A model generated the notes under the pieces. That model was not told the origin of the DNA and did no database searches. It saw nothing but the letters and a program-made list of their open reading frames with translations. DNA of 14,528 nucleotides from a virus. Position 1 is the first letter of the stretch; every line of letters starts with the position of its first letter. Location: UHGV virus genome UHGV-0197628. One strand, 5' to 3'. Both the position numbers and the translations under genes were made by a program. Positions 1 through 14,528 of this stretch are shown in pieces.

Positions 1-1
1 G

Positions 2-946
2 GGTATCACCACGCTTCAGCCGCGCATTAAAAACGGTTCAAAAGTGGAGGTGCTGATTGGTGATGAGCTGGTGATCACCGGCTGGGTGGAGGCTACGCCC
101 GTTCGTTACGATGCCCGGTCGGTCAGCACCGGTATTGCCGGACGCAGTCTAACCGCTGACCTGATTGATTGTGCAGCCGAACCGACACAGTTTAACGGAC
201 GATCACTGGTACAGATTGCGCAGGCGCTTGCTGCGCCCTTCGGCATTGAGGTGGTGAACAGCGGTGCGCCGTCGGGTGTTATTCCTGATGTCCAGCCTGA
301 TCACGGTGAAACGGTGATCGAGGTGATTAACAAAATACTCGGTCAGCAGCAGGCGCTGGCTTATGACGACCCGCACGGCAGGCTGGTGATTGGCGGTATT
401 GGCTCAACGCGGGCACATACCGCGCTGGTACTCGGGGAAAACATCCTTTCCTGCGATACGGAGAAGAGTATCCGGGAGCGGTTTTCTGTTTACCAGGTGG
501 CGGGGCAGCGTGCCGGAAACGACGATGATTTCGGTGAGGCCACCACCACCGCGCTGCGGGCCCGCACAGAGGACGCATTTATTGCCCGTTACCGTCCGAT
601 GTATATCAGGCAGACAGGGCAGGCCACGGGGGCAGGCTGTATTGCGCGTGCTGACTTTGAAGCCCGGCAACGGGCGGCGCGGACGGATGAAACCATCTAT
701 GTGGTGCAGGGCTGGCGACAGGGTAACGGTACGCTGTGGCAGCCCAACCAGCGGGTGATTGTCTTTGATCCGGTCTGTGGTTTCGACAATACCGAACTGC
801 TTGTATCGGAAGTCACGTTTACTCAGGGCCAGAACGGTACCCTGACGGAAATCCGTGTCGGCCCGCCTGATGCTTATCTGCCTGAACCCGAAGATCCCGG
901 CGCGCGGAAAAAGAAAAAAGCCAGAGTACAGGAGGACCCGTTCTGA
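2..946 (+). CDS. Phage baseplate/tail protein, Mu gp44 (P) / late-control-D-like; 5' end lies outside the window
   Basis: Reading frame is open from nt 2 (no in-frame stop before the first Met at 44) to the TGA at 944-946, so the gene starts upstream of the window. Its stop overlaps the next start (TGATG at 944-948), indicating translational coupling. It sits first in a co-oriented gp44-gp45-gp46-gp47-gp48-like series. Family assignment rests on gene order and size, not a search. Confidence 0.55.
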   Translation, partial: GITTLQPRIKNGSKVEVLIGDELVITGWVEATPVRYDARSVSTGIAGRSLTADLIDCAAEPTQFNGRSLVQIAQALAAPFGIEVVNSGAPSGVIPDVQPDHGETVIEVINKILGQQQALAYDDPHGRLVIGGIGSTRAHTALVLGENILSCDTEKSIRERFSVYQVAGQRAGNDDDFGEATTTALRARTEDAFIARYRPMYIRQTGQATGAGCIARADFEARQRAARTDETIYVVQGWRQGNGTLWQPNQRVIVFDPVCGFDNTELLVSEVTFTQGQNGTLTEIRVGPPDAYLPEPEDPGARKKKKARVQEDPF

Positions 947-1494
947 TGAGGGCGATTGAAACCATACAGCGACAACTCCTCGGGCTGATTGGGCGGGCCG
1001 TGGTGAAAAGCATCAGTGCCGCCACGAAATGTCAGACCGTGGATGTGTCCCTGATTGCCGGTGAACCCAAAGCCGGGGTTGAACATCTTGAACCTTACGG
1101 TTTTACCGCAAGGGCAAACAGCGGTGCGGAAGCGGTGGTGTTGTTTCCGGATGGTGACCGTTCTCATGCGGTGGTTGTTACGGTGTCGGACCGGCGTTAC
1201 CGCCTGAAAGGGCTGCAGACGGGTGAGGTGGCTGTCTATGACGATCAGGGGCAGTCCGTGACGCTGACCCGGGAGGGGATCGTGGTGGACGGTGCAGGTA
1301 AAACGATCACGTTTCGCAATGCACCTGAAGCACGTTTTGAAATGGATCTGGAAGTGACCGGACAGGTGAAAGACCTGTGCGACTCCGGCGGCACCACCAT
1401 GTCAGCGATGCGGCTTGCCTATAACGGGCATCGTCACAGAGAGAACGGTCAGGGCAGTAACACCGATAAACCTGATAAAGCGATGGAGGCATGA
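946..1494 (+). CDS. Baseplate spike/assembly protein V-like (Mu gp45-like)
   Basis: 182-aa ORF, ATG at 946 overlapping the upstream stop, and its own stop overlapping the next start (ATGATG at 1491-1496). Size and position match the gpV/gp45 slot of Mu-like tail modules. Confidence 0.65.
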   Translation: MRAIETIQRQLLGLIGRAVVKSISAATKCQTVDVSLIAGEPKAGVEHLEPYGFTARANSGAEAVVLFPDGDRSHAVVVTVSDRRYRLKGLQTGEVAVYDDQGQSVTLTREGIVVDGAGKTITFRNAPEARFEMDLEVTGQVKDLCDSGGTTMSAMRLAYNGHRHRENGQGSNTDKPDKAMEA

Positions 1495-1919
1495 TGGAAC
1501 TGTGGCTGACGGTGAACGGTAAACGCACCTGCGCCAGCGCACCGCTGGATCCGCTGACCCGCGCTGTGGTGATTTCCCTGTTCACCTGGCGGCGGGCGGA
1601 GCCTGATGACTATGCCGACGTCCCAATGGGATGGTGGGGGGATACCTGGCCTGCGGTACAGAATGACCGTTACGGCTCCCGACTGTGGCTGCTTCAGCGC
1701 AGCAAACTGACCAATCAGCTGGTGCAGACGGTAAGGGGATATATCCGCGAATGCCTGCAATGGATGATTGATGACGGCGTGGTGTCCCGTATTGATCTGG
1801 ATATCCGCCGCACCGGGATTAATGAGCTGGGTAACAGTATCATCCTCTGGCGTCGTGATGGACCAGTAGTGATTTCTTTTGATGATCTGTGGAGTGCGAT
1901 AACGCATGGCGGACAGTGA
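1491..1919 (+). CDS. Mu gp46-like baseplate protein (gp25/W-like)
   Basis: 142-aa ORF with 4-nt start/stop overlap to the upstream gene and 14-nt overlap with the downstream gene. Size matches Mu gp46 (~140 aa) and it is in the conserved position. Confidence 0.6.
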   Translation: MMELWLTVNGKRTCASAPLDPLTRAVVISLFTWRRAEPDDYADVPMGWWGDTWPAVQNDRYGSRLWLLQRSKLTNQLVQTVRGYIRECLQWMIDDGVVSRIDLDIRRTGINELGNSIILWRRDGPVVISFDDLWSAITHGGQ

Positions 1920-2964
1920 ATTTCAGCGCCCGACGCTGGCAGAAAATATCAGTATGCTCCGTAACGATTTATTCGCCAGGCTGGACGTCAGCGACACGCT
2001 CCGGCGCATGGATGAAGACGTGCGGGCAAAGGTGTATGCGGCGGCGCTGCATACGGTCTACGGTTACATCGATTATCTGGCAATGAATATGCTGCCTGAC
2101 CTGTGCGATGAGTCCTGGCTGGCGCGACATGCTGCGATGAAACGGTGTCCGCGCAAGGGAGCCACGGTTGCCAGCGGGTATATGCGCTGGGAAGGTGTCA
2201 GCGATGGCCTGAAGGTGACTGCCGGGAGTGTTATTCAGCGCAATGACTTGGTGCAGTACACGACAACTGACGATGCAATCAGCTCCGGTGGTGTCCTGCG
2301 TGTGCCGATCGCCTGCTCAAGTGCAGGTGCGGTTGGTAACGCTGACGACGGTACGGCATTAATCCTGGTCACGCCGGTGAATGGTCTGCCGTCTTCCGGC
2401 GTGGCTGACACCCTGACAGGCGGATTTGATACTGAAGAGCTGGAAACGTGGCGCGCCCGCGTCATTGAGCGGTATTACTGGACGCCGCAGGGCGGGGCTG
2501 ACGGGGACTATGTCGTCTGGGCTAAAGAAGTACCTGGCATTACCCGCGCATGGACATACCGACACTGGATGGGAACGGGGACTGTCGGTGTGATGATTGC
2601 CAGCAGTGACCTGATTAATCCCATTCCGGAAGAATCAACGGAAACGGCAGCAAGACAACATATCGGGCCACTGGCCCCGGTGGCAGGCTCTGATTTGTAT
2701 GTATTCAGGCCGGTGGCACATACGGTGGATTTTCATATCCGCGTGACGCCGGACACACCAGAAATACGGGCTGCCATCACCGCCGAGTTGCGTTCGTTCC
2801 TGCTGCGTGATGGTTATCCGCAGGGAGAACTGAAGGTATCGCGTATCAGTGAGGCGATTTCCGGTGCGAACGGGGAATACAGCCATCAATTGCTTGCACC
2901 GGCGGACAATATCTCCATTGCAAAAAATGAACTGGCGGTTCTGGGGACGATTTCATGGACGTGA
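1906..2964 (+). CDS. Baseplate J-like protein (Mu gp47 / P2 gpJ family)
   Basis: 352-aa ORF in the conserved position between the gp46-like and gp48-like genes, overlapping the downstream gene by 10 nt. Size is typical of baseplate J proteins. Confidence 0.7.
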
Positions 2965-3539
2965 CAAACGATGATTACATCCGTCTGTTGTCGGCACTGC
3001 TGCCGCCCGGTCCGGCGTGGTCAGCCAGCGATCCGGCGATTGCCGGTGCGGCACCGTCATTAACTCGTGTTCATCAGCGTGCGGATGCCCTGATGCGGGA
3101 GCTGGATCCGCGCACCACCACCGAACTGATAAATCGCTGGGAGCGTCTGTGCGGCCTGCCGGATGAATGTATTCCCGCAGGGACACAGACCCTTCGCCAG
3201 CGTCAGCAACGGCTGGATGCGAAGGTTAACCTGGCGGGTGGCATCAACGAGGATTTTTATCTTGCACAGCTTGCTGCCCTGGGCAGACCAGATGCCGCCA
3301 TCACGCGATACGACAAAAGCACGTTCACCTGCTCATCGGCCTGTACTGACGCTGTGAATGCGCCGGAATGGCGGTATTACTGGCAGGTCAACATGCCAGC
3401 CGCCACCAACACCACCTGGATGACATGTGGCGATCCCTGTGATTCCGCACTGCGTATCTGGGGGGACACCGTTGTCGAGTGCGTGCTTAACAAACTCTGC
3501 CCGTCGCATACCTACGTAATTTTTAAATATCCGGAGTAA
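2955..3539 (+). CDS. Mu gp48-like tail protein (P2 gpI-like / YmfQ-like)
   Basis: 194-aa ORF immediately upstream of the tail-fibre gene, with a 3-nt gap to it. Size and position match Mu gp48 and e14 YmfQ. Confidence 0.6.
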
Positions 3540-3542
3540 TCC

Positions 3543-4208
3543 ATGCATCGTATAGACACGAAAACCGCGCAGAAGGATAAGTTCGGCGCGGGTAAGAACG
3601 GTTTTACCCGTGGTAACCCCCAGACCGGCACGCCTGCCACCGATCTGGATGATGACTACTTTGATATGTTGCAGGAAGAACTCTGCAGCGTGGTGGAGGC
3701 ATCCGGTGCCAGTCTGGAGAAGGCGCGGCACGACCAGCTGCTTACCGCGCTTCGTGCGCTGCTGTTAAGCCGCAAGAATCCGTTTGGCGATATCAAATCG
3801 GATGGCACGGTGAAAACGGCTCTCGAAAACCTTGGTTTGGGAGAAGCGGCAAAACGGGATGTGGGTAACGGGCAAAACCAAATTCCTGATATGTCAGCGT
3901 GGGAGTGTGGGGGAGATACAACGACGGGATGGAGGCGAAGCCCGGATGGTTATATTGAACAATGGGGGCTAACTGGGGCCACAACAAATGAAGTTTTGAT
4001 TAATTTTCCTATCCCATTTCCGACAGCCGTCATTTCTATTAATGAACATGACCAGGCTCCTGTGGCAGGGAAAATGTCAGTATGGCAATTCTATAAATTG
4101 ACTAACTCAAATGTCATAGCAGAGAACCTGGGATCTCTTGATAAAGGAAATCCATCCTTCAATGTTCCAACTGTCGCTGGTTGCCGCTGGTTTGCTACAG
4201 GAAGATAA
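3543..4208 (+). CDS. Side tail fibre protein (Stf / Mu S-like); constant N-terminus (to ~nt 3833) fused to the currently expressed variable C-terminus inside the invertible segment
   Basis: 221-aa ORF. The N-terminus ([26 protein letters not shown]...) is, from memory, characteristic of e14 StfP-type fibre proteins. The 26-bp inversion crossover site lies in the ALENLGLGE codons (nt 3820-3845). Sequence downstream of the site is visibly more AT-rich and unrelated to the constant part. Confidence 0.8.
3820..3845. repeat. Left inversion crossover site (gix/pix/hix-like, 26 bp, central TT)
   Basis: ctctcgaaaaccTTggtttgggagaa resembles the Hin/Gin crossover-site pattern (..GAAAACC NN GGTTT..). 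Its reverse complement matches the right site at 5659-5684 over 15 contiguous bp (cttctcccaaaccaa), with partial similarity beyond. Confidence 0.75.
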
Positions 4209-4209
4209 A

Positions 4210-4650
4210 ATGAGTAAATATCTTTACGATGCTAAAACTAATATGTTTTACCCATTTACTCTGGAAAGTCAGTATAAGGAGTCTGGGTTATGGCCTCATA
4301 ATGGAGTTGAAGTTGATGAGGATATATTTATTAAGTACCTGTCCCCACCTCCAGGGAAGGTGAGAGTTGCGGGTGATGATGGCTATCCTGCATGGGATGA
4401 CGTACCGCCGCTAACTCATGAAGAACAACTGTCAGAAGCGGAACGAAAAAAACAGGCACTCATAAATCGAGTTAATGAATATATTAACAGTAAGCAGTGG
4501 CCAGGAAAGGCTGCTATTGGTCGTCTGAAAGGTGAGGAACTGGCGCAATATAATTTATGGCTGGATTATCTGGACGCACTGGAACTGGTCGATACTTCCA
4601 GTGCTCCAGATATTGAATGGCCTACGCCTCCGGCAGTTCAGGCCAGATGA
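4210..4650 (+). CDS. Tail fibre assembly chaperone (Tfa / Mu U-like)
   Basis: ATG at 4210 lies 1 nt after the stf stop (TAA 4206-4208), with an AGGAAG Shine-Dalgarno-like sequence about 8 nt upstream. C-terminus ...GRLKGEELAQYNLWLDYLDALELVDTSSAPDIEWPTPP is the conserved Tfa tail. The longer ORF from 4138 starts inside stf and was not used. Confidence 0.75.
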   Translation: MSKYLYDAKTNMFYPFTLESQYKESGLWPHNGVEVDEDIFIKYLSPPPGKVRVAGDDGYPAWDDVPPLTHEEQLSEAERKKQALINRVNEYINSKQWPGKAAIGRLKGEELAQYNLWLDYLDALELVDTSSAPDIEWPTPPAVQAR

Positions 4651-5215
4651 CATCCGGCGCGGTGCTGGTATCTGTTGCCGCCACCGCGTCAATGTAATCC
4701 AGCACAGCGTTAAGCCGGGTTGTTTCTGCCTGCGTCAGTTTCCGCCCGGCCTGTAATTTCAGCTGAATCAGACTAATGGAAGCCATTGCTGCATCAATCA
4801 GTGACTGGCGCTGTGCTTCTGCCGCTTCTACTGCGGCACCGTGTTGTGCCTCAGTATCTGTCACCCATTTCTCACCATCCCATTTATCATATGGCGTTAA
4901 CGGTGAAAGCGTGACATAACCGTTTTTGATGGCACCGATATAATCCACTGTAACAGCAGCACCATTTTCGATTGAGTAAACAGTCTCATTGCGATGGTCT
5001 TCTTCATGGCACCATCCCTTACCTGTAAATACTGCCACTTTTCCCGGAATGTTTTCGCCCGGGTCAATACCAGTGGAACAGGCGGGCATACTTACGCCAG
5101 TATTAATATATTCATCAGACCAGCCCGTATACTCAGATGTTTCAGCATCATAATAAAAACAACGCATATCGCCCGGCACTGTAGCCAGCCCATTTTCATC
5201 AAAAACAGGTTTCAT
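4622..5215 (-). CDS. Tail fibre assembly chaperone, alternative copy (Tfa' / Mu U'-like)
   Basis: 197-aa minus-strand ORF ending in the same conserved Tfa C-terminal motif (...LDYIDAVAATDTSTAPDVIWPELPEA). It is convergent with tfa, with the 3' ends overlapping by 29 nt, and sits immediately downstream (minus-strand sense) of the alternative fibre cassette. Confidence 0.8.
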   Translation of the reverse strand: MKPVFDENGLATVPGDMRCFYYDAETSEYTGWSDEYINTGVSMPACSTGIDPGENIPGKVAVFTGKGWCHEEDHRNETVYSIENGAAVTVDYIGAIKNGYVTLSPLTPYDKWDGEKWVTDTEAQHGAAVEAAEAQRQSLIDAAMASISLIQLKLQAGRKLTQAETTRLNAVLDYIDAVAATDTSTAPDVIWPELPEA

Positions 5216-5682
5216 TATTTAGCCCTCACCAGAAAGTTAAATGCAATATTTCGCGGTCTGACAGCAACAAAATTCACACCATCACCCACAGAGCTACTGG
5301 TGAAATTAAATCGTGAAAATCCTGGCTGATTTCCGGCGATGCCATCATGAAAGTTAATTGCGTGTCCCGCACCTTCGCCTATATTCCCGGCAAACTGAGA
5401 AAAGTTTGTAGCTTCCTGCCAGCTTAATAATTCGCGACCACCATCTGCACCTCGCCCGTCATCCCAGATACGAATGAAATCACCGCGGGCTTCAGGTAAT
5501 ACCAGCGAAGGAAACACTTTCGCCAGCACAGGGTAATTAGAGGCAGAAAATTTCGCCCCGTTGAACTTCAAAAACACCATACCGGACCAGCTGTCGATTA
5601 CAGTATTTGGCATTGCCGCGGAGGGCCAGAAGAACGGAACGCCAATAGCTGGAGCACCTTCTCCCAAACCAACATTTATGAA
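5215..5682 (-). CDS. Alternative tail-fibre variable C-terminal cassette (S'-like), silent in this orientation
   Basis: Minus-strand frame is open from the right crossover site and encodes ...NVGLGEGAPAIG..., i.e. the same L-G-L-G-E junction residues as the expressed fibre. It has no credible start or RBS of its own; the track's Met at 5712 lies in the pin upstream region. Its stop abuts the tfa' start. Confidence 0.7.
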   Translation of the reverse strand, partial: FINVGLGEGAPAIGVPFFWPSAAMPNTVIDSWSGMVFLKFNGAKFSASNYPVLAKVFPSLVLPEARGDFIRIWDDGRGADGGRELLSWQEATNFSQFAGNIGEGAGHAINFHDGIAGNQPGFSRFNFTSSSVGDGVNFVAVRPRNIAFNFLVRAK

Positions 5683-5684
5683 AA
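5659..5684. repeat. Right inversion crossover site (26 bp, central AA; inverted relative to the left site)
   Basis: ttctcccaaaccAAcatttatgaaaa. The first 14 bp are the exact reverse complement of the inner half of the left site. It lies 55 bp upstream of the invertase start codon, as in Gin/Pin/Hin systems. Confidence 0.7.
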
Positions 5685-5738
5685 TGCAGAAATAACGAGC
5701 AAATGGCATCATTCCTGCTTTTGCTAGGGAGATCTACC

Positions 5739-6293
5739 ATGCTTATTGGCTATGTACGTGTGTCAACAAATGACCAGAACACAGATCTACAACGTAATGC
5801 GCTGAACTGTGCAGGATGCGAGCTGATTTTTGAAGACAAGATAAGCGGTACAAAGTCCGAAAGGCCGGGACTGAAAAAACTGCTCAGGACATTATCGGCA
5901 GGTGACACTCTGGTTGTCTGGAAGCTGGATCGGCTGGGGCGCAGTATGCGGCATCTGGTCATTCTGGTTGAGGAGTTGCGCGAACGTGGCGTTAATTTTC
6001 GCAGCCTGACGGATGCTATTGATACCAGTACCCCAATGGGGCGCTTTTTCTTTCATGTGATGGGGGCCCTGGCTGAAATGGAACGAGAACTGATTGTTGA
6101 ACGAACAAAAGCTGGACTGGAAGCTGCTCGCGCACAGGGACGAATTGGTGGACGTCGTCCCAAACTTACACAAGAACAATGGGCGCAGGCCGGGCGATTA
6201 ATTGCATCAGGCGTTCCTCGCCAGAAGGTGGCGATCATCTATGATGTTGGTATATCGACACTGTATAAGAAGTTTCCGGTCGGAGATAAATGA
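5739..6293 (+). CDS. pin: Serine DNA invertase, Pin/Gin/Hin/Cin family
   Basis: 184-aa product from ATG 5739 (MLIGYVRVSTNDQNTDLQRNALN...). It has the N-terminal catalytic-serine motif (YVRVSTNDQ) and a C-terminal helix-turn-helix region (...GRRPKLT..QKVAIIYDVGISTLYKKF), and is near-identical in character to E. coli PinE as I recall it. The 12 extra N-terminal codons in the ORF track (from 5703) were rejected. Confidence 0.9.
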   Translation: MLIGYVRVSTNDQNTDLQRNALNCAGCELIFEDKISGTKSERPGLKKLLRTLSAGDTLVVWKLDRLGRSMRHLVILVEELRERGVNFRSLTDAIDTSTPMGRFFFHVMGALAEMERELIVERTKAGLEAARAQGRIGGRRPKLTQEQWAQAGRLIASGVPRQKVAIIYDVGISTLYKKFPVGDK

Positions 6294-6334
6294 AACCGTA
6301 GCACGTCGTATGCAAGAAGATCGTGCTGCGGTTT
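6293..6334. terminator. Bidirectional terminator-like hairpin between convergent pin and the GIY-YIG gene (repeat copy A)
   Basis: 13-bp stem (aaaccgtagcacg / cgtgctgcggttt, one G-U pair) with a 16-nt loop. It starts at the last base of the pin stop codon and ends 20 nt beyond the stop of the minus-strand gene. Flanks are moderately T-rich on both strands. Confidence 0.55.
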
Positions 6335-6353
6335 ATGCTTATCACTTAAAGAC

Positions 6354-7223
<870 letters not shown>

Positions 7224-7312
7224 CTAATCCTTTGAATTTACATAGTAAAAAAAGATACTTTTCCTCATAGTGTGAGCTAATTTTATGTTTCGTTTGATGA
7301 TCGGACCGGTCT

Positions 7313-7352
7313 CAAAAACCGCAGGCACGTTGTATGCAAGAACGTGCTGTGG
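7313..7352 (-). terminator. Rho-independent terminator-like hairpin on the minus strand (repeat copy B), downstream of the FRG-motif gene
   Basis: Stem ccgcaggcacg / cgtgctgtgg (about 10 bp with one bulge) and loop ttgtatgcaagaa. On the minus strand it is followed by a UUUUUG run (plus-strand aaaaa at 7314-7318). Stem and loop are closely related to hairpin A (shared gtatgcaagaa loop). Confidence 0.5.
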
Positions 7353-7658
7353 CTGGCTGGTGAACTTCCAATAGTGCGAATATTGAATTATTTCCAGCTG
7401 TTATCGATTTTACGTATTTTTTGCATGAGAGGATTTCCACCACCTCCCACCGACCATCTATGGCTGTACGGCCCTATCTCTAGGGCTGCTATGTGCTAAA
7501 AGCAGACATTGATAACATTGAGATATGTTAATTTATAGGTAGCGGGTCAAGGCCACTGAAGATTCCAGTTTTTGACCCTGAGCCTGAAACCGTCCCCGAT
7601 GAGCAGTTCCACCTGAAGACTGCACAGTCTTAGTTTTCTTTGCCATTAATTTATCCAT

Positions 7659-8993
7659 TTATGATATCGATATATACTTTTTTGCAATTTCCGCTGCCGT
7701 TTTCTCCATGCTGGGATATACAGTGCTTTCGGAGATATTAAGCTGGGCCAGCTCTTTCAGAATTTTATTTTTGTTTGCTATCTCCACTCTGTTAAGAGGA
7801 AAATCAGCATCTGTTTCCGGTAAAATAGGATCAAGTCCGAACAGAAGAAATGCGCCTGCCTGAGACTGTATGCGTTCATTATTTATTTTAGCTTTAAGGA
7901 AAACAACTTTTTTTAAGTCATCAGAGATTATTTTGTTTCTGAAATATGATTTTTCATTCTGTATAAGGTCTGCAAGTTTATCAGTGAGTTCAGATAGCTC
8001 TACAGTATCTTTTCTGACATCAATGGAAGACAATTTTTCCAGCTCTTCGTAAGATAAAACTGATAAGTTTGCTATGCAGCTTACTGTATCTGAATCAAAA
8101 TATTTAATTTTCTTTCTGTTTGTTGAGAACGAAATCACCTGCCCATTTTCATTATGGTTCGAACTGCAAGCAAAATATAATGCTATCAGTGGGTTAGATG
8201 TGATATCCAGGAGTCTCGTAGGTAAGCCATAATGCTGCATGCGGACAAGTTTATCAATCGTAAATTTATCCTCCTTAAATTCATTTGGTCTTGCACTGAG
8301 TATCTCACGTACTAAGTCAGATTCTGAAGCAAGATGCCTGTATGTCCCGTTTTCATTCTTTCTGTAAAGAGAGGGGACAAGCTCATATGAGCTTTTAGAG
8401 TGTCCACGATAAAAGGTAACGAGGCCATCCGGACTGTTTTTTTTAATAAAGGCAAGATAATCCATGACATTCTCAACCACCTGATATGTTTGTTTTTTTA
8501 ATTTGATTGTACCTTTCAGACGGTTGTTTTTCTTGTTTAAACTAAGTCCTTTCAGAACAATATTTAAATCCTTATCTTTTACTGCCCAGTGTGTACGACT
8601 TAACCCGAAAGTTCCTAGTTCTAGGATTTCTTTATATAATGCTGTTTGGGGATTTGTTATTTCTCCAAAATCATGGTTAATCTTGAAGGAAAATAAAATG
8701 TCGTCACCATCTTTACGTAAATTTCTTATTTTCCCAAGCCTGATTCTGATGTACCTGTTTTTATCATTTTCAGTATCTTTCATATAAGTTTCGGTCATGA
8801 ACAACACAGGTAGCATGGCGAGTAATTTTAAGCTATCGGGTCTTACAGGTATTAATTTACTGTAAATATCGCTTGGGGTGCCTTCCAGCATGCGGGACAT
8901 CGAGAAGCTTTCCTCGCCTTCTTTAAGCCCAGGATTCATACACGGCCAGCGGTCAAAAACGTCCGGTTCTCCGGCCATGATTAAGTTAAACAT
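7659..8993 (-). CDS. FRG-motif protein (Abi-like), uncharacterised N-terminal ~170 aa plus central FRG-type domain (candidate defence gene)
   Basis: 444-aa product from ATG 8991-8993, with AGGAG 6 nt upstream on the minus strand; the track's start is the adjacent GTG. Contains F-Y-R-G-H followed by ...RMQHYGLPTRLLDITSNPLIALYFAC, which I recognise as the FRG-domain signature. The gene is AT-rich. Confidence 0.7.
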   Translation of the reverse strand: MFNLIMAGEPDVFDRWPCMNPGLKEGEESFSMSRMLEGTPSDIYSKLIPVRPDSLKLLAMLPVLFMTETYMKDTENDKNRYIRIRLGKIRNLRKDGDDILFSFKINHDFGEITNPQTALYKEILELGTFGLSRTHWAVKDKDLNIVLKGLSLNKKNNRLKGTIKLKKQTYQVVENVMDYLAFIKKNSPDGLVTFYRGHSKSSYELVPSLYRKNENGTYRHLASESDLVREILSARPNEFKEDKFTIDKLVRMQHYGLPTRLLDITSNPLIALYFACSSNHNENGQVISFSTNRKKIKYFDSDTVSCIANLSVLSYEELEKLSSIDVRKDTVELSELTDKLADLIQNEKSYFRNKIISDDLKKVVFLKAKINNERIQSQAGAFLLFGLDPILPETDADFPLNRVEIANKNKILKELAQLNISESTVYPSMEKTAAEIAKKYISIS

Positions 8994-9505
8994 CACAATC
9001 TCCTGAATTTACTCACTAAAGTCAGTGTGTTTTTATTATGTTGCATCATTGTGAATGAGGATGGCATGAGTTGTCCATGCTTGTTTGTCTTTCATAATTC
9101 ACAAAGTACATCAGCTTCTAATGTGTTTACGGTACGACCATGTGGGCGATGTCTTTCCATTCCTGAAAACTTCCTACTCAACCATGATGTATAAGCTGTA
9201 GTATGAAGTTTCTTGCCATCCAGTTAAGTAAATGTCTGCTCCTCGCTCACAACAGACATTCACTACAGTTGTGGCAGAAAGGTATGCATACTGGGTGGGG
9301 AAAGTGTGAAAGAAAGGAAGAATACTGCGCCGTTTGTCGTCGCGTTTATCTTCATTGGCTATGCAAGTCGTAATACAAGGTGGGACAAAACTGAGACACA
9401 TAAGGCCTCACAATGGCTTGCAAGGCTTTACATGTTTTGATGTGGTGGGACGTGTGAGCGCAGTGTTGATGGGGTAATGCTTTGAATTAGAAGCGGATTC
9501 TTATA

Positions 9506-9551
9506 ATTCGTAATGCGAAGGTCGTAGGTTCGACTCCTATTATCGGCACCA
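9506..9551 (+). tRNA. Partial tRNA-Thr(CGU) gene, 3' 46 nt only (anticodon loop to CCA); att-site direct-repeat remnant, not a functional tRNA
   Basis: attcgtaatgcgaaggtcgtaggttcgactcctattatcggcacca matches the 3' portion of enterobacterial tRNA-Thr(CGU) (thrW) as I recall it, including anticodon CGT, T-arm GGTTCGACTCC and the CCA end. The 30 nt upstream do not encode the 5' acceptor/D arm, so the tRNA is truncated. Confidence 0.75.
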
Positions 9552-9663
9552 TCTCAACTTCCTCAAACGTCCGTATTAGTCCTTAAATCTTCTGATTTAT
9601 AAGGTTTTTTCTTCTTTTAAGTCCATGGTAGTCCGTAACCATCCAGTAGAATCCGGTACTGAA

Positions 9664-9714
9664 TGTGTATAGGATTGTGTATATGTTCCTGTTCGGTCTG
9701 GATTCCTATACACA
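9664..9714 (+). promoter_or_regulatory. Perfect 11-bp inverted repeat (tgtgtatagga ...29 bp... tcctatacaca) spanning the integrase translation start
   Basis: The arms at 9664-9674 and 9704-9714 are exact reverse complements. The right arm ends at the A of the preferred int ATG (9714) and the left arm begins inside the alternative upstream ATG (9663). A partial third copy (ttgtgtatatg) lies at 9675-9685. Confidence 0.4.
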
Positions 9715-10901
9715 TGCCTTTAAACGATATGCAGATTCGCCGCGCTAAACCTGAAGCTAAAGCCTATACACTTGGAGATGGGCAAGGGCTGTCTTTGCTT
9801 ATAGAACCTAATGGAAGCAAGAGCTGGCGGTTCCGCTATCGTTTTGCCGGTAAACCAAAAATGATCTCGCTTGGTGTTTATCCAACAATAACACTTGCCG
9901 ATGCGCGTTCCCGTCGTGACGATGCCCGAAAACTGGTCGCGGAAGGAAAAAATCCGAGCGAGGTTAGAAAAGAGCAGAAAATTGCTTTGCAAACGGAGTC
10001 CGAGAGCGCGTTTGAAAAGATAGCCACAGAGTGGCACCAAATGAAGTCTGCTAAATGGTCGGAAGGATATGCCTCAGACATCATGGAAGCGTTTCAGAAC
10101 GATATTTTTCCTTACGTGGGTACAAGACCAATAGGCGAAATCAAACCGCTAGAACTGCTTAACGTGCTACGTAAAATTGAAAGGCGCGGTGCATTAGAAA
10201 AAATGCGCAAAGTTCGGCAGCGATGTTCAGAGGTTTTTCGCTACGCCATTGCTACAGGAAGGGCTGAGTTTAACCCAGCAGCGGATCTTTCTAGTGCCCT
10301 CGATGTACACCAATCAAATCACTTCCCGTTCCTAAAAGCTGATGAGATACCCGATTTTCTGCGCGCTTTGGATGGTTACACCGGAAGTCGGCTTGTCCTG
10401 ATTGCTACGAAATTACTGATGATTACTGGTGTAAGAACCATCGAATTACGTGCGGCATTATGGTCAGAATTTGATCTAGATAACGCTATTTGGGAAATTC
10501 CAGCAGAAAGGATGAAAATGCGTAGGGCACACCTTGTGCCACTATCTACTCAAGCGTTAGATTTACTCAGCGAAATCAAAATAATGACAGGGAACTATAG
10601 TTATGTTTTTCCGGGACGGAATGATCCGAACAAGCCGATGAGTGAAGCAAGTGTCAATCAGGTAATCAAACGCATTGGTTATAAAAGTAGGGTCACTGGG
10701 CATGGTTTTAGGCACATGATGTCAACTATCTTACATGAGCATGGGTTTGATTCCCGGTGGATAGAGTTACAGCTGGCTCATGTTGATAAAAATACCATTC
10801 GAGGTACTTATAATCATGCGGTCTATCGTCACGAGAGAGCTACTATGATGCAGTATTTTGCTGATTTGCTATTAGGAAAGTCTCATGACAATAATCAATG
10901 A
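9714..10901 (+). CDS. int: Tyrosine site-specific integrase, P4 / CP4-57 family
   Basis: 395-aa product (MPLNDMQIRRAKPEAKAYTLGDGQGLSLLIEPNGSKSWRFRYRF...). It has the N-terminal arm-binding region typical of P4-type integrases and C-terminal catalytic residues in context (...HLVPLS..., HGFRHMMSTILHEHG, LAHVD...RGTYNHAVY). It sits directly downstream of a tRNA 3' fragment. Confidence 0.9.
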   Translation: MPLNDMQIRRAKPEAKAYTLGDGQGLSLLIEPNGSKSWRFRYRFAGKPKMISLGVYPTITLADARSRRDDARKLVAEGKNPSEVRKEQKIALQTESESAFEKIATEWHQMKSAKWSEGYASDIMEAFQNDIFPYVGTRPIGEIKPLELLNVLRKIERRGALEKMRKVRQRCSEVFRYAIATGRAEFNPAADLSSALDVHQSNHFPFLKADEIPDFLRALDGYTGSRLVLIATKLLMITGVRTIELRAALWSEFDLDNAIWEIPAERMKMRRAHLVPLSTQALDLLSEIKIMTGNYSYVFPGRNDPNKPMSEASVNQVIKRIGYKSRVTGHGFRHMMSTILHEHGFDSRWIELQLAHVDKNTIRGTYNHAVYRHERATMMQYFADLLLGKSHDNNQ

Positions 10902-11811
10902 GGTGAATAAATTTGTATCTGTCAACAAGCAAGATTTTGATGCTTGTATTGATGTTGTTGAGCATTTCTTTTGTATCAAATCGCTCTGTGCAGAGGTACG
11001 ATTTCATCATTTGAAGTTTGATGGTAATGGACGACCTATGGTGAAGGCGTTAGCTGAAAAACTTTACGAGTATATAATCGAGTACTGTTTTTCGATGCAA
11101 GATAGATGTGAACCTCTCTCATCTCAACAATGGCTTGCCTTAGCGAAACAGGCTCGTTCATTGTTTAGGCATCCCAAAGTCACAGACGATTCGCCTGATA
11201 AAACAGGCGAGGCTGGCGAAACTTTATTATTTTTCCTTTTGGAAGCTATAATTGGTGCTCCACAGTTAGTGGCAAAAATGGAGCTTAAAACCAACTCGAA
11301 TGATGAGGTAAAAGGTTCTGACGGCATACATATAAAATGGAATGAAACGGATAAAGTTGTTGATTTCTACTTTGGTGAGTCAAAGCTCTATCAGAAAATA
11401 TCCTCTGCAATGGACTCAGCACTTAAAAGTATCGATGATTTCCATACTAATGAAATGTATAAGCATGAGTTTGGTATGGCAACAAAACATTATAAATACG
11501 CTAAGGATGAAGTCAGGGACGCTGTAAGGAAACTATTCGTTTCTGGAGAACCCGGTTCTGATGTTCGTGTTAATCATGCGTGTTTAATTGGTTTTGACTG
11601 GAATGGTTTTGACAAGTTAGATTATGGATCTTCGATTTCTATAAATGAGCAGTTTATTACAGAGTTGACTAACACACTTCCGCAATGGATTGGTCTGTTA
11701 GATGAAAAATTCAGTAGGTTTAACCGTAAATATTTAAGGTTTGATGTTTTCTTTATTCCATTTCCTTCGGTAGTCGATTTTAGAAATGAATTTAACAAGG
11801 CATTAAATTAA
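10885..11811 (+). CDS. PD-(D/E)xK-like nuclease candidate; HamA-like (Hachiman effector) by architecture
   Basis: 308-aa ORF with AGGAAAG 5 nt upstream of its ATG, overlapping the int 3' end by 17 nt. Candidate catalytic triad spacing: E120 (FLLEAIIG), D146 (GSDGIHI), E165-x-K167 (FYFGESKLY). It is followed 2 nt later by a large SF2 helicase gene. Strongly AT-rich. DUF1837 membership could not be verified without an HMM search. Confidence 0.6.
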   Translation: MTIINEVNKFVSVNKQDFDACIDVVEHFFCIKSLCAEVRFHHLKFDGNGRPMVKALAEKLYEYIIEYCFSMQDRCEPLSSQQWLALAKQARSLFRHPKVTDDSPDKTGEAGETLLFFLLEAIIGAPQLVAKMELKTNSNDEVKGSDGIHIKWNETDKVVDFYFGESKLYQKISSAMDSALKSIDDFHTNEMYKHEFGMATKHYKYAKDEVRDAVRKLFVSGEPGSDVRVNHACLIGFDWNGFDKLDYGSSISINEQFITELTNTLPQWIGLLDEKFSRFNRKYLRFDVFFIPFPSVVDFRNEFNKALN

Positions 11812-11813
11812 CT

Positions 11814-14345
11814 ATGTTAAAGATAAATGAGTTGTACTCTAAACTTGTCAAGGTTAGCATTGATAACATATTTGGAGTGGTAGGGGAGTTAAAGGTAAGT
11901 ATTAGTGATATTTATAAGTTATTATCATATGGCTCCATACTGTCTTTGTCAGAGAATGAATCTGACATAAAAAAAGCCTACGACATTGTCAGTAGAGTTT
12001 TAGAATTAGATACTCAGTACGATTCGAACATAATTGCAGCTTGTGATCTTATTTTATCTAGAATCGGAAATTTTCCAGGTAGAGGGTTGCTAAGAGATAA
12101 ATATAATAATGGAGAGTCTCCTTCGCTGAATTTATCACTTTCGCTAGAACGTATTGGGCGTGAAACAGAAAATACATACAATGATATAACTTTGACAAAC
12201 TTCCAATGCAAGTTGCTTAATTCGCTAAGAAAGAATAATTATCTCAGTGTGTCCGCCCCAACGTCTGCTGGAAAATCTTTTGTTCTTTCATTAGCTGTTA
12301 TTGATAAAATTCAAGCTTATGAAAAAGAATGCATTGTTTATGTAGTACCAACTCGTGCGTTAATTAGTGAGGTGTCAAATAAATTTCGTTATGAGTGTAA
12401 ACAAGCAGGGTTAAATAAAGTTATTATAAGAACTGCACCAGAAATAATAGAGAGTAATAGTATAGAACAAGGCTTAATTTATGTGCTCACACAAGAAAGG
12501 CTTGTTAGTTTACTCTCGAATTCTTATGGGAATAGCAATTTCCATATAGATACATTACTCATAGATGAAGCCCATGAAATCCAAAAAGGAAAAAGAGGTA
12601 TAATTCTTCAAAATGCTGTTGAATTAGCTCTTGAAAAACATCCTCATATGCATGTTATGTTTTCCAGCCCTTTGATAAGTAATCCTGATTATTTTTTTTC
12701 AATTTTTAGATGGCGCAAGGATGGTAAGTCATTTATTGAAACTATATCACCTGTTACACAGAATGTTTTACTTGTTAATCAAGTGAAAAATAACACTCAA
12801 GCTATTAACGTAAAGTTAAACAATGAAGATAAACCCATTGATCTTGGGAATTATAATTTAGATTTTGTGTTGCGGGGCAATCGTAAGGTTCAGAAAGCAA
12901 AAATTGCTGAGTTTATATCTCGCTCCGGTGGTGCTGTAATTGTATTTGAAGATACACCGTCTAATGCAGAAGGTGTTGCTATCAATATAGCGGAAAGTAT
13001 TGGTGATACATCTTTACAAGATGATTACGAAGAGTTTGTGTCTTCGATTGAAGAAGAAATGCATGAGCAATATACTTTGATCACATGCTTACGGTCAGGA
13101 GTGGCTTTTCATTATGGGAATATGCCATCTATAATAAGAAATGGGATTGAGTACTTCTTTAAACGTGGCGATATTAAGTTTATAGTTTGTACTAGTACAT
13201 TACTTCAGGGTGTTAACTTACCTGCAAAGCATCTTATTTTAGAGAATCCACACAGTGGTGATGAACCAATGTCAAGGGCTGATTTCTTGAACCTTGCTGG
13301 TAGAGCTGGCCGTTTGAAATATGAGTTTCATGGCAATGTTTGGTGTGTGAGAAGTAATCTTTGGGATAACAAGTCCTTTGAAGGTGATACTCTCCAAACT
13401 ATAACTTCCGCGATGTCAAAAGTTATGGAAGATGGCGGTAGCATCATTTCAAATGCTATTGATAATGTATTTTCCCCAACTGATGACAAGGAATTGGCAG
13501 ACGTTGCATTCGCGCGTTTTTATCAAGAAGTGCAAAGAGATGGTTTTCAATTATCATACTTCTCTGAGTTAGAGGGGGAGGAGTCCAATGAAATGTTGGA
13601 ATATAATTATGATAAAGTTCGACGAATGAAGATAACCATCCCTGAAGAACTGTTGAAATTGAACTCAGGCACGAGACCTGATTACATACAACGACTTTAT
13701 GAATTCTTCACCCAACAGGATGATTTAGATGATTACATTCTGCATAGCCCTTATCAACAAGGAGGGAAAGCAAGAGTAGACCGCGCCATCGAGATTATTA
13801 TTGATATATTCGCTTGGCCGGTTACATTGCAATATGCAAAGTTAATTAGTGTTATGGCTCATCATTGGATGACCTCTCACTCCCTTAAATCCATGATTAA
13901 CTATAAGATTAGAAGTTCTCATGAACTATCAGATATGATTAATCGTGGTGAATCAATTGGTAAAATAAGAAGAAAAACATCCTCTCTTATTAGGGATGTG
14001 CTAAATACACTTGAGAATCAAGTTAGGTATAATTTAGTTCGATATTTAAAAGTATATAGAGAAACTCTTGTCTATGTTCTTATTTCAAAAGGAGAAAAAG
14101 GTAAGGCTGAGAAGGTCGAGAATATTAGTGCCTATCTAGAGTTTGGTTCCTGTAATCCAACTGAATTAAGCCTTATGTCATTAGGCCTTTCTCGAAGTAC
14201 TGCTTTATTTTTAAAAAATAAATTTAATTTCCCGCGGGATTCCTCCCCTGAAGCGTTGATTGAATTTTTATTAACGAAAGATTTGAATTCTAAAAACACA
14301 CCAGAATTTAGAGTTAGAGAAATTAAAGATGTACTTGGAATTTAA
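11814..14345 (+). CDS. Superfamily-2 DEAH-box helicase with ~340-aa uncharacterised C-terminal region; HamB-like (Hachiman helicase) by architecture
   Basis: 843-aa ORF. Walker A is SAPTSAGKS (K154, nt ~12255-12278), motif II is LLIDEAHE (nt ~12561-12575), motif V-like is TSTLLQGVNLP and motif VI is LAGRAGRL (aa ~493-500). The start is 2 nt after the upstream stop. Strongly AT-rich. Confidence 0.7.
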   Translation: MLKINELYSKLVKVSIDNIFGVVGELKVSISDIYKLLSYGSILSLSENESDIKKAYDIVSRVLELDTQYDSNIIAACDLILSRIGNFPGRGLLRDKYNNGESPSLNLSLSLERIGRETENTYNDITLTNFQCKLLNSLRKNNYLSVSAPTSAGKSFVLSLAVIDKIQAYEKECIVYVVPTRALISEVSNKFRYECKQAGLNKVIIRTAPEIIESNSIEQGLIYVLTQERLVSLLSNSYGNSNFHIDTLLIDEAHEIQKGKRGIILQNAVELALEKHPHMHVMFSSPLISNPDYFFSIFRWRKDGKSFIETISPVTQNVLLVNQVKNNTQAINVKLNNEDKPIDLGNYNLDFVLRGNRKVQKAKIAEFISRSGGAVIVFEDTPSNAEGVAINIAESIGDTSLQDDYEEFVSSIEEEMHEQYTLITCLRSGVAFHYGNMPSIIRNGIEYFFKRGDIKFIVCTSTLLQGVNLPAKHLILENPHSGDEPMSRADFLNLAGRAGRLKYEFHGNVWCVRSNLWDNKSFEGDTLQTITSAMSKVMEDGGSIISNAIDNVFSPTDDKELADVAFARFYQEVQRDGFQLSYFSELEGEESNEMLEYNYDKVRRMKITIPEELLKLNSGTRPDYIQRLYEFFTQQDDLDDYILHSPYQQGGKARVDRAIEIIIDIFAWPVTLQYAKLISVMAHHWMTSHSLKSMINYKIRSSHELSDMINRGESIGKIRRKTSSLIRDVLNTLENQVRYNLVRYLKVYRETLVYVLISKGEKGKAEKVENISAYLEFGSCNPTELSLMSLGLSRSTALFLKNKFNFPRDSSPEALIEFLLTKDLNSKNTPEFRVREIKDVLGI

Positions 14346-14528
14346 TATTTTATCGCAATTATTTTGATGCCAATATAAATAATCATTCTCAATGGCGAAT
14401 TGCTAAAGGAAAGTTCATACGATGACCGCGCGCAATGCTCTCCCCGCCACGCCTGCCCGCTTTGTAGGGCAGTTTTCATGCAGGTGCATGAACCGGCTCA
14501 GGCCGCGCCGGTACTGGCGTGGTGGGGA

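What the first reader, a model, noticed from the sequence alone, without database searches (positions are those of the whole stretch)
10885..10901. Cargo gene start overlaps the integrase stop by 17 nt
The ATG of the 308-aa gene (10885) lies inside the last codons of int (stop at 10899-10901), in a different frame, with an AGGAAAG ribosome-binding sequence embedded in int coding sequence. Cargo is normally separated from int by an intergenic region. This tight junction suggests that int and the defence operon can be co-transcribed, coupling defence expression to integrase expression. Alternatively, the int 3' end was remodelled when the cargo was acquired.
Basis: seen in the sequence. Interest (0 to 1): 0.45.

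Follow-up and report, generated by a model that had tools for sequence, protein, structure and literature searches.

The report
Integrase–Hachiman gene overlap in P4-like satellite
The 17-base overlap between the integrase stop and the first defence gene is real, but it is the normal operon-style junction of P4-like phage satellites that carry swappable anti-phage cassettes, here shifted from a 4-base ATGA overlap by a one-base deletion.

Summary
The integrase gene (int, 9714-10901) ends at TGA 10899-10901. The 308-aa gene starts at ATG 10885, in another frame, behind AGGAAAG (10874-10880). The 308-aa and 843-aa genes are HamA and HamB, a type I Hachiman system.

The locus is the int-to-cos/psu defence hotspot of a P4-like satellite integrated at tRNA-Thr. 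A tRNA remnant lies at 9506-9551 and a cos-like site at 14435-14453. Contigs carrying the identical element have psu next.

The junction is not unusual for this lineage. In 19 of 23 related satellites with a co-oriented first cargo gene (14 cargo types), that gene starts -17 to +30 nt from the int stop. Its ribosome-binding site usually lies in the last int codons.

Two Hachiman-carrying relatives have the classic ATGA overlap. This window lacks one base 8 nt before the ATG, so int reads 13 nt further.

The last ~220 nt of int share their history with hamAB, not with the rest of int. Cassettes are therefore swapped by recombination inside int.

Co-transcription with int is the best reading: no terminator, no consensus promoter in the int 3' part. 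It is inferred, not shown. This is a new member of a known kind, of low to moderate interest.

The parts
9506..9551 (+). attL: the 3' 46 nt of tRNA-Thr (thrW), the duplicated attachment core at the left end of the satellite
   Evidence: Alignment A2: identical to the 3' part of the intact tRNA-Thr in E. coli S30 (L092), in Citrobacter L014 and in metagenome contig L085. The 5' part of the tRNA is missing here and in O157 TR01. ARAGORN finds no complete tRNA.
9714..10901 (+). P4/CP4-family tyrosine integrase (395 aa). The ORF listed from 9663 is over-extended.
   Evidence: Pfam Arm-DNA-bind_3, Phage_int_M and Phage_integrase. Gene calls of 395 or 390 aa on L083-L086. PDB sequence matches to CP4-like / CPS-53 integrase domains. 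84-92% aa identity to integrases of psu-bearing elements.
10640..10683 (.). Zone of the recombination breakpoint inside int. Upstream, int resembles integrases that carry other cargos. Downstream, it resembles integrases linked to Hachiman.
   Evidence: Maximum chi-square on informative sites for 12 triplets. In 10 the best break falls at 10628-10683; the two triplets that use L007 place it at 10553-10601. Fisher p ranges from 0.0023 to 9e-16, and from 3e-5 to 9e-16 without L007/L088. 60-nt identity profile.
10684..10901 (+). int 3' segment (last ~73 codons, including H-x-x-R, the second His and the catalytic Tyr in GTYNHA) that is co-inherited with the hamAB cassette
   Evidence: All 129 E. 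coli megablast matches to the int 3' end stop at window 10819. No E. coli complete genome has this tail or hamAB.
10874..10880 (+). Shine-Dalgarno-like AGGAAAG for hamA, made of int codons Leu-Gly-Lys
   Evidence: SD-like 4-mers lie in the last int codons in 16 of 20 co-oriented tight junctions, against 2 of 10 loci with reversed or distant first genes.
10885..10901 (+). 17-nt overlap of the hamA start (ATG 10885) with the int end (TGA 10899-10901)
   Evidence: Derived from an ATGA 4-nt overlap by a 1-nt gap 8 nt upstream of the ATG, relative to L087 and L088.
10885..11811 (+). hamA (308 aa, DUF1837/HamA)
   Evidence: Pfam PF08878, 6.9e-50. PADLOC HamA1 PDLC00168, 8e-135.
11814..14345 (+). hamB (843 aa, SF2 DEAD-box helicase), 2 nt after the hamA stop
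   Evidence: Pfam DEAD, Helicase_C and ResIII. PADLOC HamB, 1e-279.
14435..14453 (+). cos-like packaging site of the P4-like satellite; right edge of the cargo hotspot
   Evidence: 16 of 19 match to the complement of the P4 cos, with 0 matches in 200 shuffles. Exact reverse complement of GGCGTGGCGGGGAGAGCAT in a Klebsiella P4-like clone in Rousset et al. Table S2A.
14453..14472 (+). Terminator-like hairpin plus T-run, the first such site downstream of int on the + strand after the junction
   Evidence: CTGCCCGCTTTGTAGGGCAG TTTTCATGCA. It lies in the conserved cos-proximal sequence, so a terminator role is inferred only.

Best explanation
The window holds the left half of a P4-like phage satellite integrated at tRNA-Thr. 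The order is attL, int, hamA, hamB, cos, with psu just beyond the window end. Hachiman sits in the known int-to-psu defence hotspot.

In this integrase lineage the first co-oriented cargo gene is normally docked directly onto the end of int. Its ribosome-binding site is written in the last int codons, and its start codon lies a few bases either side of the int stop. No terminator or consensus promoter lies between them. The most likely working is therefore one transcription unit, int-hamA-hamB, read from the promoter upstream of int. In P4-family integrases that promoter is weak and negatively autoregulated. The unit would end near the cos-proximal hairpin. hamA would be translated from ATG 10885 using AGGA 10874-10877, possibly helped by ribosomes finishing int 14 nt downstream.

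The unusual length of the overlap has a simple origin. Hachiman-carrying relatives have the classic ATGA stop/start overlap. This element lacks one base 8 nt before the ATG, so int misses that TGA and runs 13 nt further to the next one.

The last ~220 nt of int share their history with hamAB rather than with the rest of int. Cassettes are thus exchanged between satellites by recombination inside int, with the cos/psu side presumably serving as the other arm. That carries the junction along with the cargo.

Shown: the anatomy, the recurrence across relatives, the indel and the mosaic ancestry. Inferred: co-transcription, translational coupling and the expression level.
For: Identity of the parts: int, HamA, HamB; attL; cos. 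Searches show psu after hamB on contigs L084-L086, which carry the identical HamA and int.

Same architecture in relatives, with different cargo between int and psu/delta.

Tight junction is the rule: 19 of 23 co-oriented first genes lie at -17 to +30 nt in the psu-associated clade, covering 14 cargo types. Among more distant integrases without psu the figure is 10 of 34. Counting all loci, 19 of 29 against 10 of 54, Fisher p = 3e-5 (raw junctions).

SD in the int tail: 16 of 20 against 2 of 10.

No sigma-70 consensus site on the + strand between 10204 and 10866. 1 site against ~9.6 expected over 19 loci.

ATGA ancestor and the 1-nt gap. A parallel case is L004 (TGA, then 4 nt, then ATG) against L003 (TGA changed to TGG, giving an 8-nt overlap) with the same cargo.

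Mosaic int: (break at ~10640-10683). One search shows that pairs with the same cargo have int-tail identity at least equal to int-body identity, while pairs with different cargo have tails at 72-79% despite bodies at 85-95%.

The element recurs with an identical junction next to an intact thrW in a different neighbourhood (L085). It was therefore recently mobile and int is probably functional.

Negative autoregulation of P4-family integrase promoters: PMC7286903 and Piazzolla 2006 as cited there. Hachiman is reported in P4 hotspots: PMC13586616.
Against: No transcript data exist. Consensus scans miss weak or non-sigma-70 promoters.

A perfect TATAAT (10809-10814, from the Thr-Tyr-Asn codons of the catalytic motif) with TTGATA at 10783-10788 lies in the int 3' end. 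The spacer is 20 nt, outside the usual 16-18.

The 19 loci in the promoter count share homologous int sequence and are not independent.

I could not identify a consensus promoter upstream of int in the window either.

The RNA fold of the junction is no more stable than shuffles (z = +0.9), so there is no structural support for coupling.

The polarity of the 1-nt indel rests on only two relatives, which may be sisters.

One counter-example exists: L005 shares an int tail with L014/L002 but carries different cargo. Breakpoints are therefore not always deep inside int.
Confidence: 0.65

Rival explanations
1. hamAB has its own promoter inside the int 3' segment that travels with the cassette. Defence expression would then be independent of int transcription, and the overlap would only reflect genome compaction in a size-limited satellite.
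For: The int 3' ~220 nt co-segregate with the cargo, as a cargo-specific promoter would. A perfect -10 hexamer TATAAT at 10809-10814, with TTGATA 20 nt upstream, lies 70 nt before the ATG. Rousset et al. cloned co-oriented P4 hotspot systems as 'native promoter' fragments that begin at this same GTYNHA motif, and at least one (pFR97) was active.
Against: The 20-nt spacer is outside the functional range, and the tool scan lists no site between 10204 and 10866. Consensus sites are depleted, not enriched, in 19 related junctions. The active clone pFR97 has its own ~50-nt intergenic region, so it says nothing about tight junctions. PARIS-1, cloned from the same motif, was inactive until driven by Ptet. 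The TATAAT is explained by conserved catalytic codons.
Confidence: 0.25
2. The overlap marks decay. A frameshift in the int tail damaged a no-longer-needed integrase in a fixed satellite remnant, and the junction has no function.
For: The 17-nt overlap does arise from a 1-nt indel that changes the last int residues, NVS* to KSHDNNQ*. Related elements in E. coli are often degraded: IS3 in int in L002, and truncated delta.
Against: The frameshift affects only residues after the conserved MMQ(W/Y)(Y/F)xDxL helix. That is a tail which varies freely in length and sequence among intact relatives. All catalytic motifs are intact (translation). The identical element is found both beside an intact thrW and in tandem behind another element, which indicates recent mobility.
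Confidence: 0.07
3. hamA really starts at GTG 10903, so there is no overlap at all.
For: GTG 10903 is in frame and lies 1 nt after the int stop.
Against: GAGG abuts the GTG with no spacing. The first six residues are conserved in homologues, which all begin with ATG at the aligned position. The HamA1 profile extends to residue 3. Gene callers chose ATG on four contigs.
Confidence: 0.03

Closest known systems
P4-like satellite int-psu defence hotspot (Rousset et al. 2022, PMC9122126; Moura de Sousa et al. 2026, PMC13586616)
   Same: A P4-family integrase next to a tRNA-derived att site. A variable anti-phage cassette lies between int and cos/psu. Hachiman is explicitly listed among P4 hotspot systems. 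Different cassettes sit at the same place in closely related elements.
   Different: In the text I could search, these papers do not describe the fine structure of the left junction. That structure comprises a cargo start docked on the int stop, an SD inside int codons, and the int 3' end inherited with the cargo. In canonical P4 the co-oriented gene after int (cII) is separated by 66 nt, and the integrase has a longer C-terminal tail.
Type I Hachiman (HamA DUF1837 nuclease + HamB SF2 helicase)
   Same: Both genes are present, adjacent (2-nt gap) and co-oriented, with full-length matches to PADLOC HamA1 and HamB profiles.
   Different: Nothing unusual in the proteins was detected. No PDB chain matches HamA by sequence at E <= 1e-3, so it is a divergent subtype. 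A relative at 71% identity (L089) sits without an integrase upstream, and another Hachiman-like pair (L013) lies 407 nt after int. Docking to int is therefore not intrinsic to Hachiman.
Operon-type stop/start overlaps (ATGA, TAATG) with translational coupling in bacteria
   Same: Same geometry as the ATGA overlap seen in relatives L087/L088 and L012. An SD lies inside the upstream ORF, with no intergenic space.
   Different: A 17-nt overlap is longer than the usual 1 or 4 nt, and here it results from a secondary 1-nt indel. The upstream partner is a mobile-element integrase, not a functionally related gene. Coupling is untested.
Integron expression platform (intI, Pc, attI, cassettes)
   Same: Conceptually similar: promoterless swappable cassettes that rely on a fixed platform next to an integrase gene.
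   Different: Cassettes here are co-directional with int and directly downstream of it. There are no attC/attI sites. Exchange appears to occur by homologous recombination within int, not by site-specific cassette capture. This is an analogy only, not membership.

Membership tests
P4-like satellite (int-psu hotspot) | P4/CP4-family tyrosine integrase at the element edge next to a tRNA-derived attachment site | tested here: met
   Pfam domains. The 3' 46 nt of tRNA-Thr lie at 9506-9551, 163 nt upstream of int, as in E. coli thrW-integrated relatives.
P4-like satellite (int-psu hotspot) | psu-delta-sid module on the far side of the variable cassette | tested here: inconclusive
   The window ends 183 nt after hamB, so psu is not in it. 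Contigs L084, L085 and L086 carry the identical HamA and int and have a Psu gene (PF07455, 5e-47) convergent after hamB. Delta and sid were not seen for this element.
P4-like satellite (int-psu hotspot) | cos packaging site adjacent to the hotspot | tested here: met
   14435-14453 matches the P4 cos complement at 16 of 19 positions, with 0 matches in 200 shuffles. It equals the cos variant in a Klebsiella P4-like clone.
P4-like satellite (int-psu hotspot) | alpha primase, epsilon, cI/AlpA core genes; helper-dependent mobilisation | not testable with these tools
   These lie outside the window and outside the short contigs that carry the identical element.
Hachiman type I | HamA (DUF1837) and HamB (SF2 helicase) encoded side by side | tested here: met
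   HamA1 8e-135 and HamB 1e-279, full-length, with a 2-nt gap.
Hachiman type I | Anti-phage activity dependent on nuclease and helicase motifs | not testable with these tools
   An ExK-type motif (GESK) and DEAD-box motifs are visible in the translations, but no functional test is possible.
Translationally coupled operon pair | Downstream start within or next to the upstream stop, with the SD inside the upstream ORF | tested here: met
   AGGA 7 nt before ATG 10885, and the int stop 14 nt after it.
Translationally coupled operon pair | Both genes on one mRNA, with downstream translation dependent on upstream translation | not testable with these tools
   Indirect support only: no terminator or consensus promoter between the genes. 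The RNA fold gives no significant occluding structure.

The most novel reading that the evidence does not exclude
In this lineage of P4-like satellites the 3' end of the integrase gene acts as a general expression dock for swappable defence cassettes. Cassettes would carry no promoter of their own. They would be transcribed from the autoregulated int promoter and initiate translation on an SD written in the int tail. They would be exchanged as a unit with the last ~70 int codons by recombination inside int. Defence dosage would then be tied to integrase homeostasis, and each swap would create a chimeric integrase.
Probability: 0.4. Interest if true: 0.5.

Novelty: new member of a known kind. 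Interest (0 to 1): 0.3.

Why it matters
For this window it matters little. The overlap is a lineage-typical junction with a trivial one-base origin, in a well-described kind of element.

The wider pattern has some practical value:
- It says where the left recombination arm of P4 hotspot swaps lies. That arm is inside int, so integrases are chimeric and poor phylogenetic markers for these elements.
- It warns that 'native promoter' clones starting at the int GTYNHA motif may lack the real promoter for tightly docked cassettes. That could explain inactive constructs.
- It predicts that defence expression in these satellites follows int autoregulation.

Tried and rejected
- Looked for the same hamAB or the same int tail in 5,426 complete E. 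coli genomes. There was none: hamAB gave no match, and all 129 int 3' matches end at 10819. Near-identical int with different cargo could therefore not be taken from that set.
- The metagenome scan for HamA relatives gave only 4 loci. That was enough for the ATGA comparison but thin for polarity.
- RNA folding of 10835-10935 gave a weak hairpin pairing the hamA start (GUCUCAU) with the int stop region (AUGAGGU). Overall stability was no better than shuffles (z = +0.9), so I did not use it as evidence for coupling.
- The promoter scans found nothing convincing, either inside the int 3' end or between attL and int. I therefore could not locate Pint.
- PDB sequence search with HamA gave no hit.
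- I tried to read the classical P4 literature on int/cII transcription (Lindqvist et al. 1993). It is not held, and a text search did not recover it.
- A programmed frameshift or int-HamA fusion was considered and rejected. There is an in-frame TAG 9 nt before the ATG, and relatives have separate ORFs with varied spacing.
- An integron-like site-specific cassette system was considered and rejected. There are no repeated att-like sites, and the junction positions vary.

Full report

Yes. The sequence shows AGGAAAG at 10874-10880, ATG at 10885 and TGA at 10899-10901. The ORF table lists 9663-10901 (+) and 10885-11811 (+), which overlap by 17 nt in different frames.

An in-frame TAG at 10873-10875 excludes any earlier start for the downstream gene. 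The only nearby alternative is GTG 10903.

ATG 10885 is the credible start, for three reasons:
- The best PADLOC HamA profile aligns from residue 3.
- Homologues start at the aligned position with conserved first residues.
- Gene calls on four independent metagenome contigs give the same pair with the same overlap.

The int ORF is over-extended in the mechanical list. The likely start is ATG 9714 (395 aa).

**2. What are the genes and the element?**

The upstream gene is a P4/CP4-family tyrosine integrase with three Pfam domains: Arm-DNA-bind_3, Phage_int_M and Phage_integrase. It also matches PDB chains of CP4-like integrase domains.

The 308-aa protein is HamA (PF08878; PADLOC HamA1, 8e-135). 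The 843-aa protein, 2 nt downstream, is HamB (1e-279). Together they form a type I Hachiman system.

Other landmarks:
- The 3' 46 nt of tRNA-Thr lie 163 nt upstream of int, at 9506-9551. They are identical to the end of the intact thrW that precedes related integrases in E. coli, Citrobacter and one metagenome contig.
- A cos-like site lies 90 nt after hamB, at 14435-14453. It matches P4 cos at 16 of 19 positions with no match in 200 shuffles. It is identical to the cos variant of a Klebsiella P4-like clone in Rousset et al., Table S2A.
- The window ends there. Three contigs carrying the identical int and HamA continue into a convergent psu gene (PF07455, 5e-47).

E. coli relatives of the integrase have the same layout, with other cargo between int and psu/delta:
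- an ABC-three-component system in O157:H7;
- a reverse transcriptase;
- Drt4;
- an AAA ATPase plus an HNH endonuclease.

This is the int-psu defence hotspot of P4-like satellites (PMC9122126). Hachiman has been reported in that hotspot (PMC13586616).

**3. Is the tight junction unusual?**

No. I collected 80 loci with relatives of the integrase from species-representative genomes. To these I added E. coli and metagenome loci, then measured the distance from the int stop to the first downstream gene.

| Group | Loci | Co-oriented first gene | Of those, within ±30 nt of the int stop |
|---|---|---|---|
| Integrase ≥60% identical (the only loci with psu nearby) | 29 | 23 | 19 |
| More distant integrases, no psu | 54 | 34 | 10 |

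In the first group the 19 distances are -17, -11, -8, -8, -8, -4, -4, -4, 0, 0, 3, 3, 3, 4, 4, 5, 9, 11 and 30 nt. They cover 14 different cargo types. Counting all loci, 19 of 29 against 10 of 54 gives Fisher p = 3e-5.

An SD-like 4-mer lies in the last int codons in 16 of 20 tight co-oriented junctions. It does so in only 2 of 10 loci where the first gene is reversed or distant, and several of those show a hairpin right after int instead.

In P4 itself, the co-oriented cII gene follows int after 66 nt.

The window is simply the most overlapped case in a continuum.

**4. Why 17 nt?**

Two relatives with HamA 87% identical (L087, L088) have the int tails ...LLLENIS* and ...LLLGNVS*. In both, the int stop is fused to the hamA start as tcATGAaa, a 4-nt overlap.

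A three-way alignment shows a single 1-nt gap in the window, 8 nt before the ATG. With that base missing, int no longer reads the TGA of ATGA. It continues for 13 nt to the next TGA, and the tail becomes ...LLLGKSHDNNQ*.

A parallel case exists. L004 and L003 carry the same cargo. In L004, int stops at TGA 4 nt before the ATG. In L003 that stop is TGG, and int runs to a TGA 8 nt inside the cargo gene.

The position of the int stop is therefore plastic. It is set by whatever sequence surrounds the cargo start. The residues after the conserved MMQ(W/Y)(Y/F)xDxL helix vary freely in length and sequence among relatives.

**5. The int 3' end travels with the cargo.**

Megablast of the int 3' end against 5,426 E. 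coli genomes gives 129 near-full matches, and every one ends at window 10819. That is two codons after the catalytic GTYNHA motif. hamAB has no match at all in that set.

A 60-nt identity profile shows two patterns:
- The int body (9500-10640) is 85-100% identical to integrases carrying other cargos (L014, L003, L005, L006, L007, L001). Identity falls to 63-80% over 10640-10820, then to noise.
- L087 is only ~75% identical in the body, but ~80-85% identical in the tail and in hamA. L088 stays at 83-93% across the junction.

Informative-site triplets place the switch at 10628-10683 in 10 of 12 comparisons. The two that use L007 place it at 10553-10601. Fisher p ranges from 0.0023 to 9e-16.

The pattern is general:

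| Pair | Cargo | int tail identity | int body identity |
|---|---|---|---|
| L004-L003 | same | 97.4% | 90.9% |
| L014-L002 | same | 93.7% | 89.1% |
| L095-L094 | same | 88.9% | 85.5% |
| window-L087 | same | 78.9% | 77.0% |
| L014-L003 | different | 74.7% | 95.6% |
| other different-cargo pairs | different | 72-79% | 85-95% |

One exception, L005, shares a tail with L014/L002 but has different cargo. Breakpoints can therefore also lie at the very end of int.

I conclude that cassettes are exchanged between satellites by recombination with the left crossover inside int. That preserves the docked junction and makes the integrases chimeric.

**6. How it most likely works.**

Several points favour a single int-hamA-hamB transcription unit:
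- There is no space for a terminator.
- The SD lies inside int.
- hamA and hamB are 2 nt apart.
- The first terminator-like hairpin on the + strand after the junction is at 14453-14472.

The tool scan lists no sigma-70-like site on the + strand between 10204 and 10866. My re-implementation of the same rule found 1 site against ~9.6 expected in the 400 nt upstream of the cargo start over 19 tight junctions. Those loci are homologous and not independent.

P4-family integrase promoters are negatively autoregulated (PMC7286903, citing Piazzolla 2006). That would give low, steady expression, which suits a nuclease/helicase defence.

Ribosomes finishing int 14 nt downstream of the hamA ATG could reinitiate. 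The junction RNA shows no significant structure, so coupling is only a possibility.

All of this paragraph is inference. No expression data were available.

**7. Rivals.**

*Internal promoter in the int 3' segment.* This remains possible, at about 0.25. A perfect TATAAT (10809-10814) is formed by the Thr-Tyr-Asn codons, with TTGATA 20 nt upstream. The spacer is too long, and the hexamer is explained by coding constraint.

Rousset et al. cloned co-oriented P4 systems as 'native promoter' fragments starting exactly at this motif. One with its own 50-nt intergenic region was active. PARIS-1 was inactive until driven by Ptet. This is anecdotal and cuts both ways.

*int decay.* This is unlikely. 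Only the variable tail is changed, the catalytic motifs are intact, and the identical element occurs next to an intact thrW elsewhere.

*A GTG 10903 start.* This is very unlikely.

**8. Novelty and verdict.**

The element type, the hotspot and Hachiman as P4 cargo are all published. In the text I could search, the two hotspot papers do not discuss three points:
- the docking of cargo onto the int stop;
- the SD in the int tail;
- the linkage of the int 3' end to the cargo.

These are modest refinements that a specialist would find plausible rather than surprising. I rate the finding as a new member of a known kind, with interest 0.3.

Noticed in passing
window 1-9505, with attL at 9506-9551: The satellite sits in tandem behind another element at thrW. 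Only the 3' 46 nt of tRNA-Thr precede int here. Upstream lie Mu-like baseplate and tail-fibre genes (Gp45, Gp46, Baseplate_J, Gp48 families on contig L083). E. coli O157:H7 TR01 has the same arrangement: tail fibre, pinE, a GIY-YIG gene, then int.
   Followed up: partly
window 4138-6293: Converging tail-fibre C-terminal and tail-fibre-assembly ORFs on both strands (4138-4650 +, 4622-5215 -, 5215-5712 -) sit next to a Pin/Gin-type serine invertase (5703-6293, Resolvase + HTH_7). It looks like an invertible host-range segment. I did not search for the inverted repeats.
   Followed up: no
window 6354-7178 (-) and 7659-8996 (-): Two further defence-type genes lie between the invertase and the satellite. 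One is a GIY-YIG protein matching PADLOC PD-T4-3 (2.7e-140). The other is an FRG-domain protein matching the candidate system PDC-S15 (1e-98), with an extra ~165-aa N-terminal region not covered by the profile.
   Followed up: partly
window 10809-10814 (and 10783-10788): The conserved catalytic-motif codons Thr-Tyr-Asn spell a perfect TATAAT. A TTGATA lies 20 nt upstream. The hexamer is TATAAT or TATAAC in relatives. It is probably just coding constraint, but it is the only promoter-like element in the int 3' end.
   Followed up: partly
window 10880-10906: GUCUCAU (covering the hamA AUG) can pair with AUGAGGU (covering the int stop). The pairing is retained in L087 and L088. The overall fold is not more stable than shuffles.
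   Followed up: partly
L013:7584-11014 (Atlantibacter sp. RC6): A 299-aa plus 844-aa gene pair of HamA/HamB size lies 407 nt downstream of a 62%-identical integrase. If it is Hachiman, this would be a case of the same kind of cargo with a long intergenic region. Its identity was not checked against profiles.
   Followed up: no
L092:3975-4010, L009:7171-7200: Where the hotspot cargo is on the opposite strand, a GC-rich hairpin follows the int stop directly (for example aggcctcTGAaacgaggcct). This fits a bidirectional terminator between convergent genes.
   Followed up: no
window 9663-9713: The mechanical ORF start at 9663 adds a Cys-rich 17-aa extension (MCIGLCICSCSVWIPIH). Gene callers and the Pfam arm-domain alignment do not support it. 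The true start is probably 9714, or 9729 (MQIRR...).
   Followed up: partly
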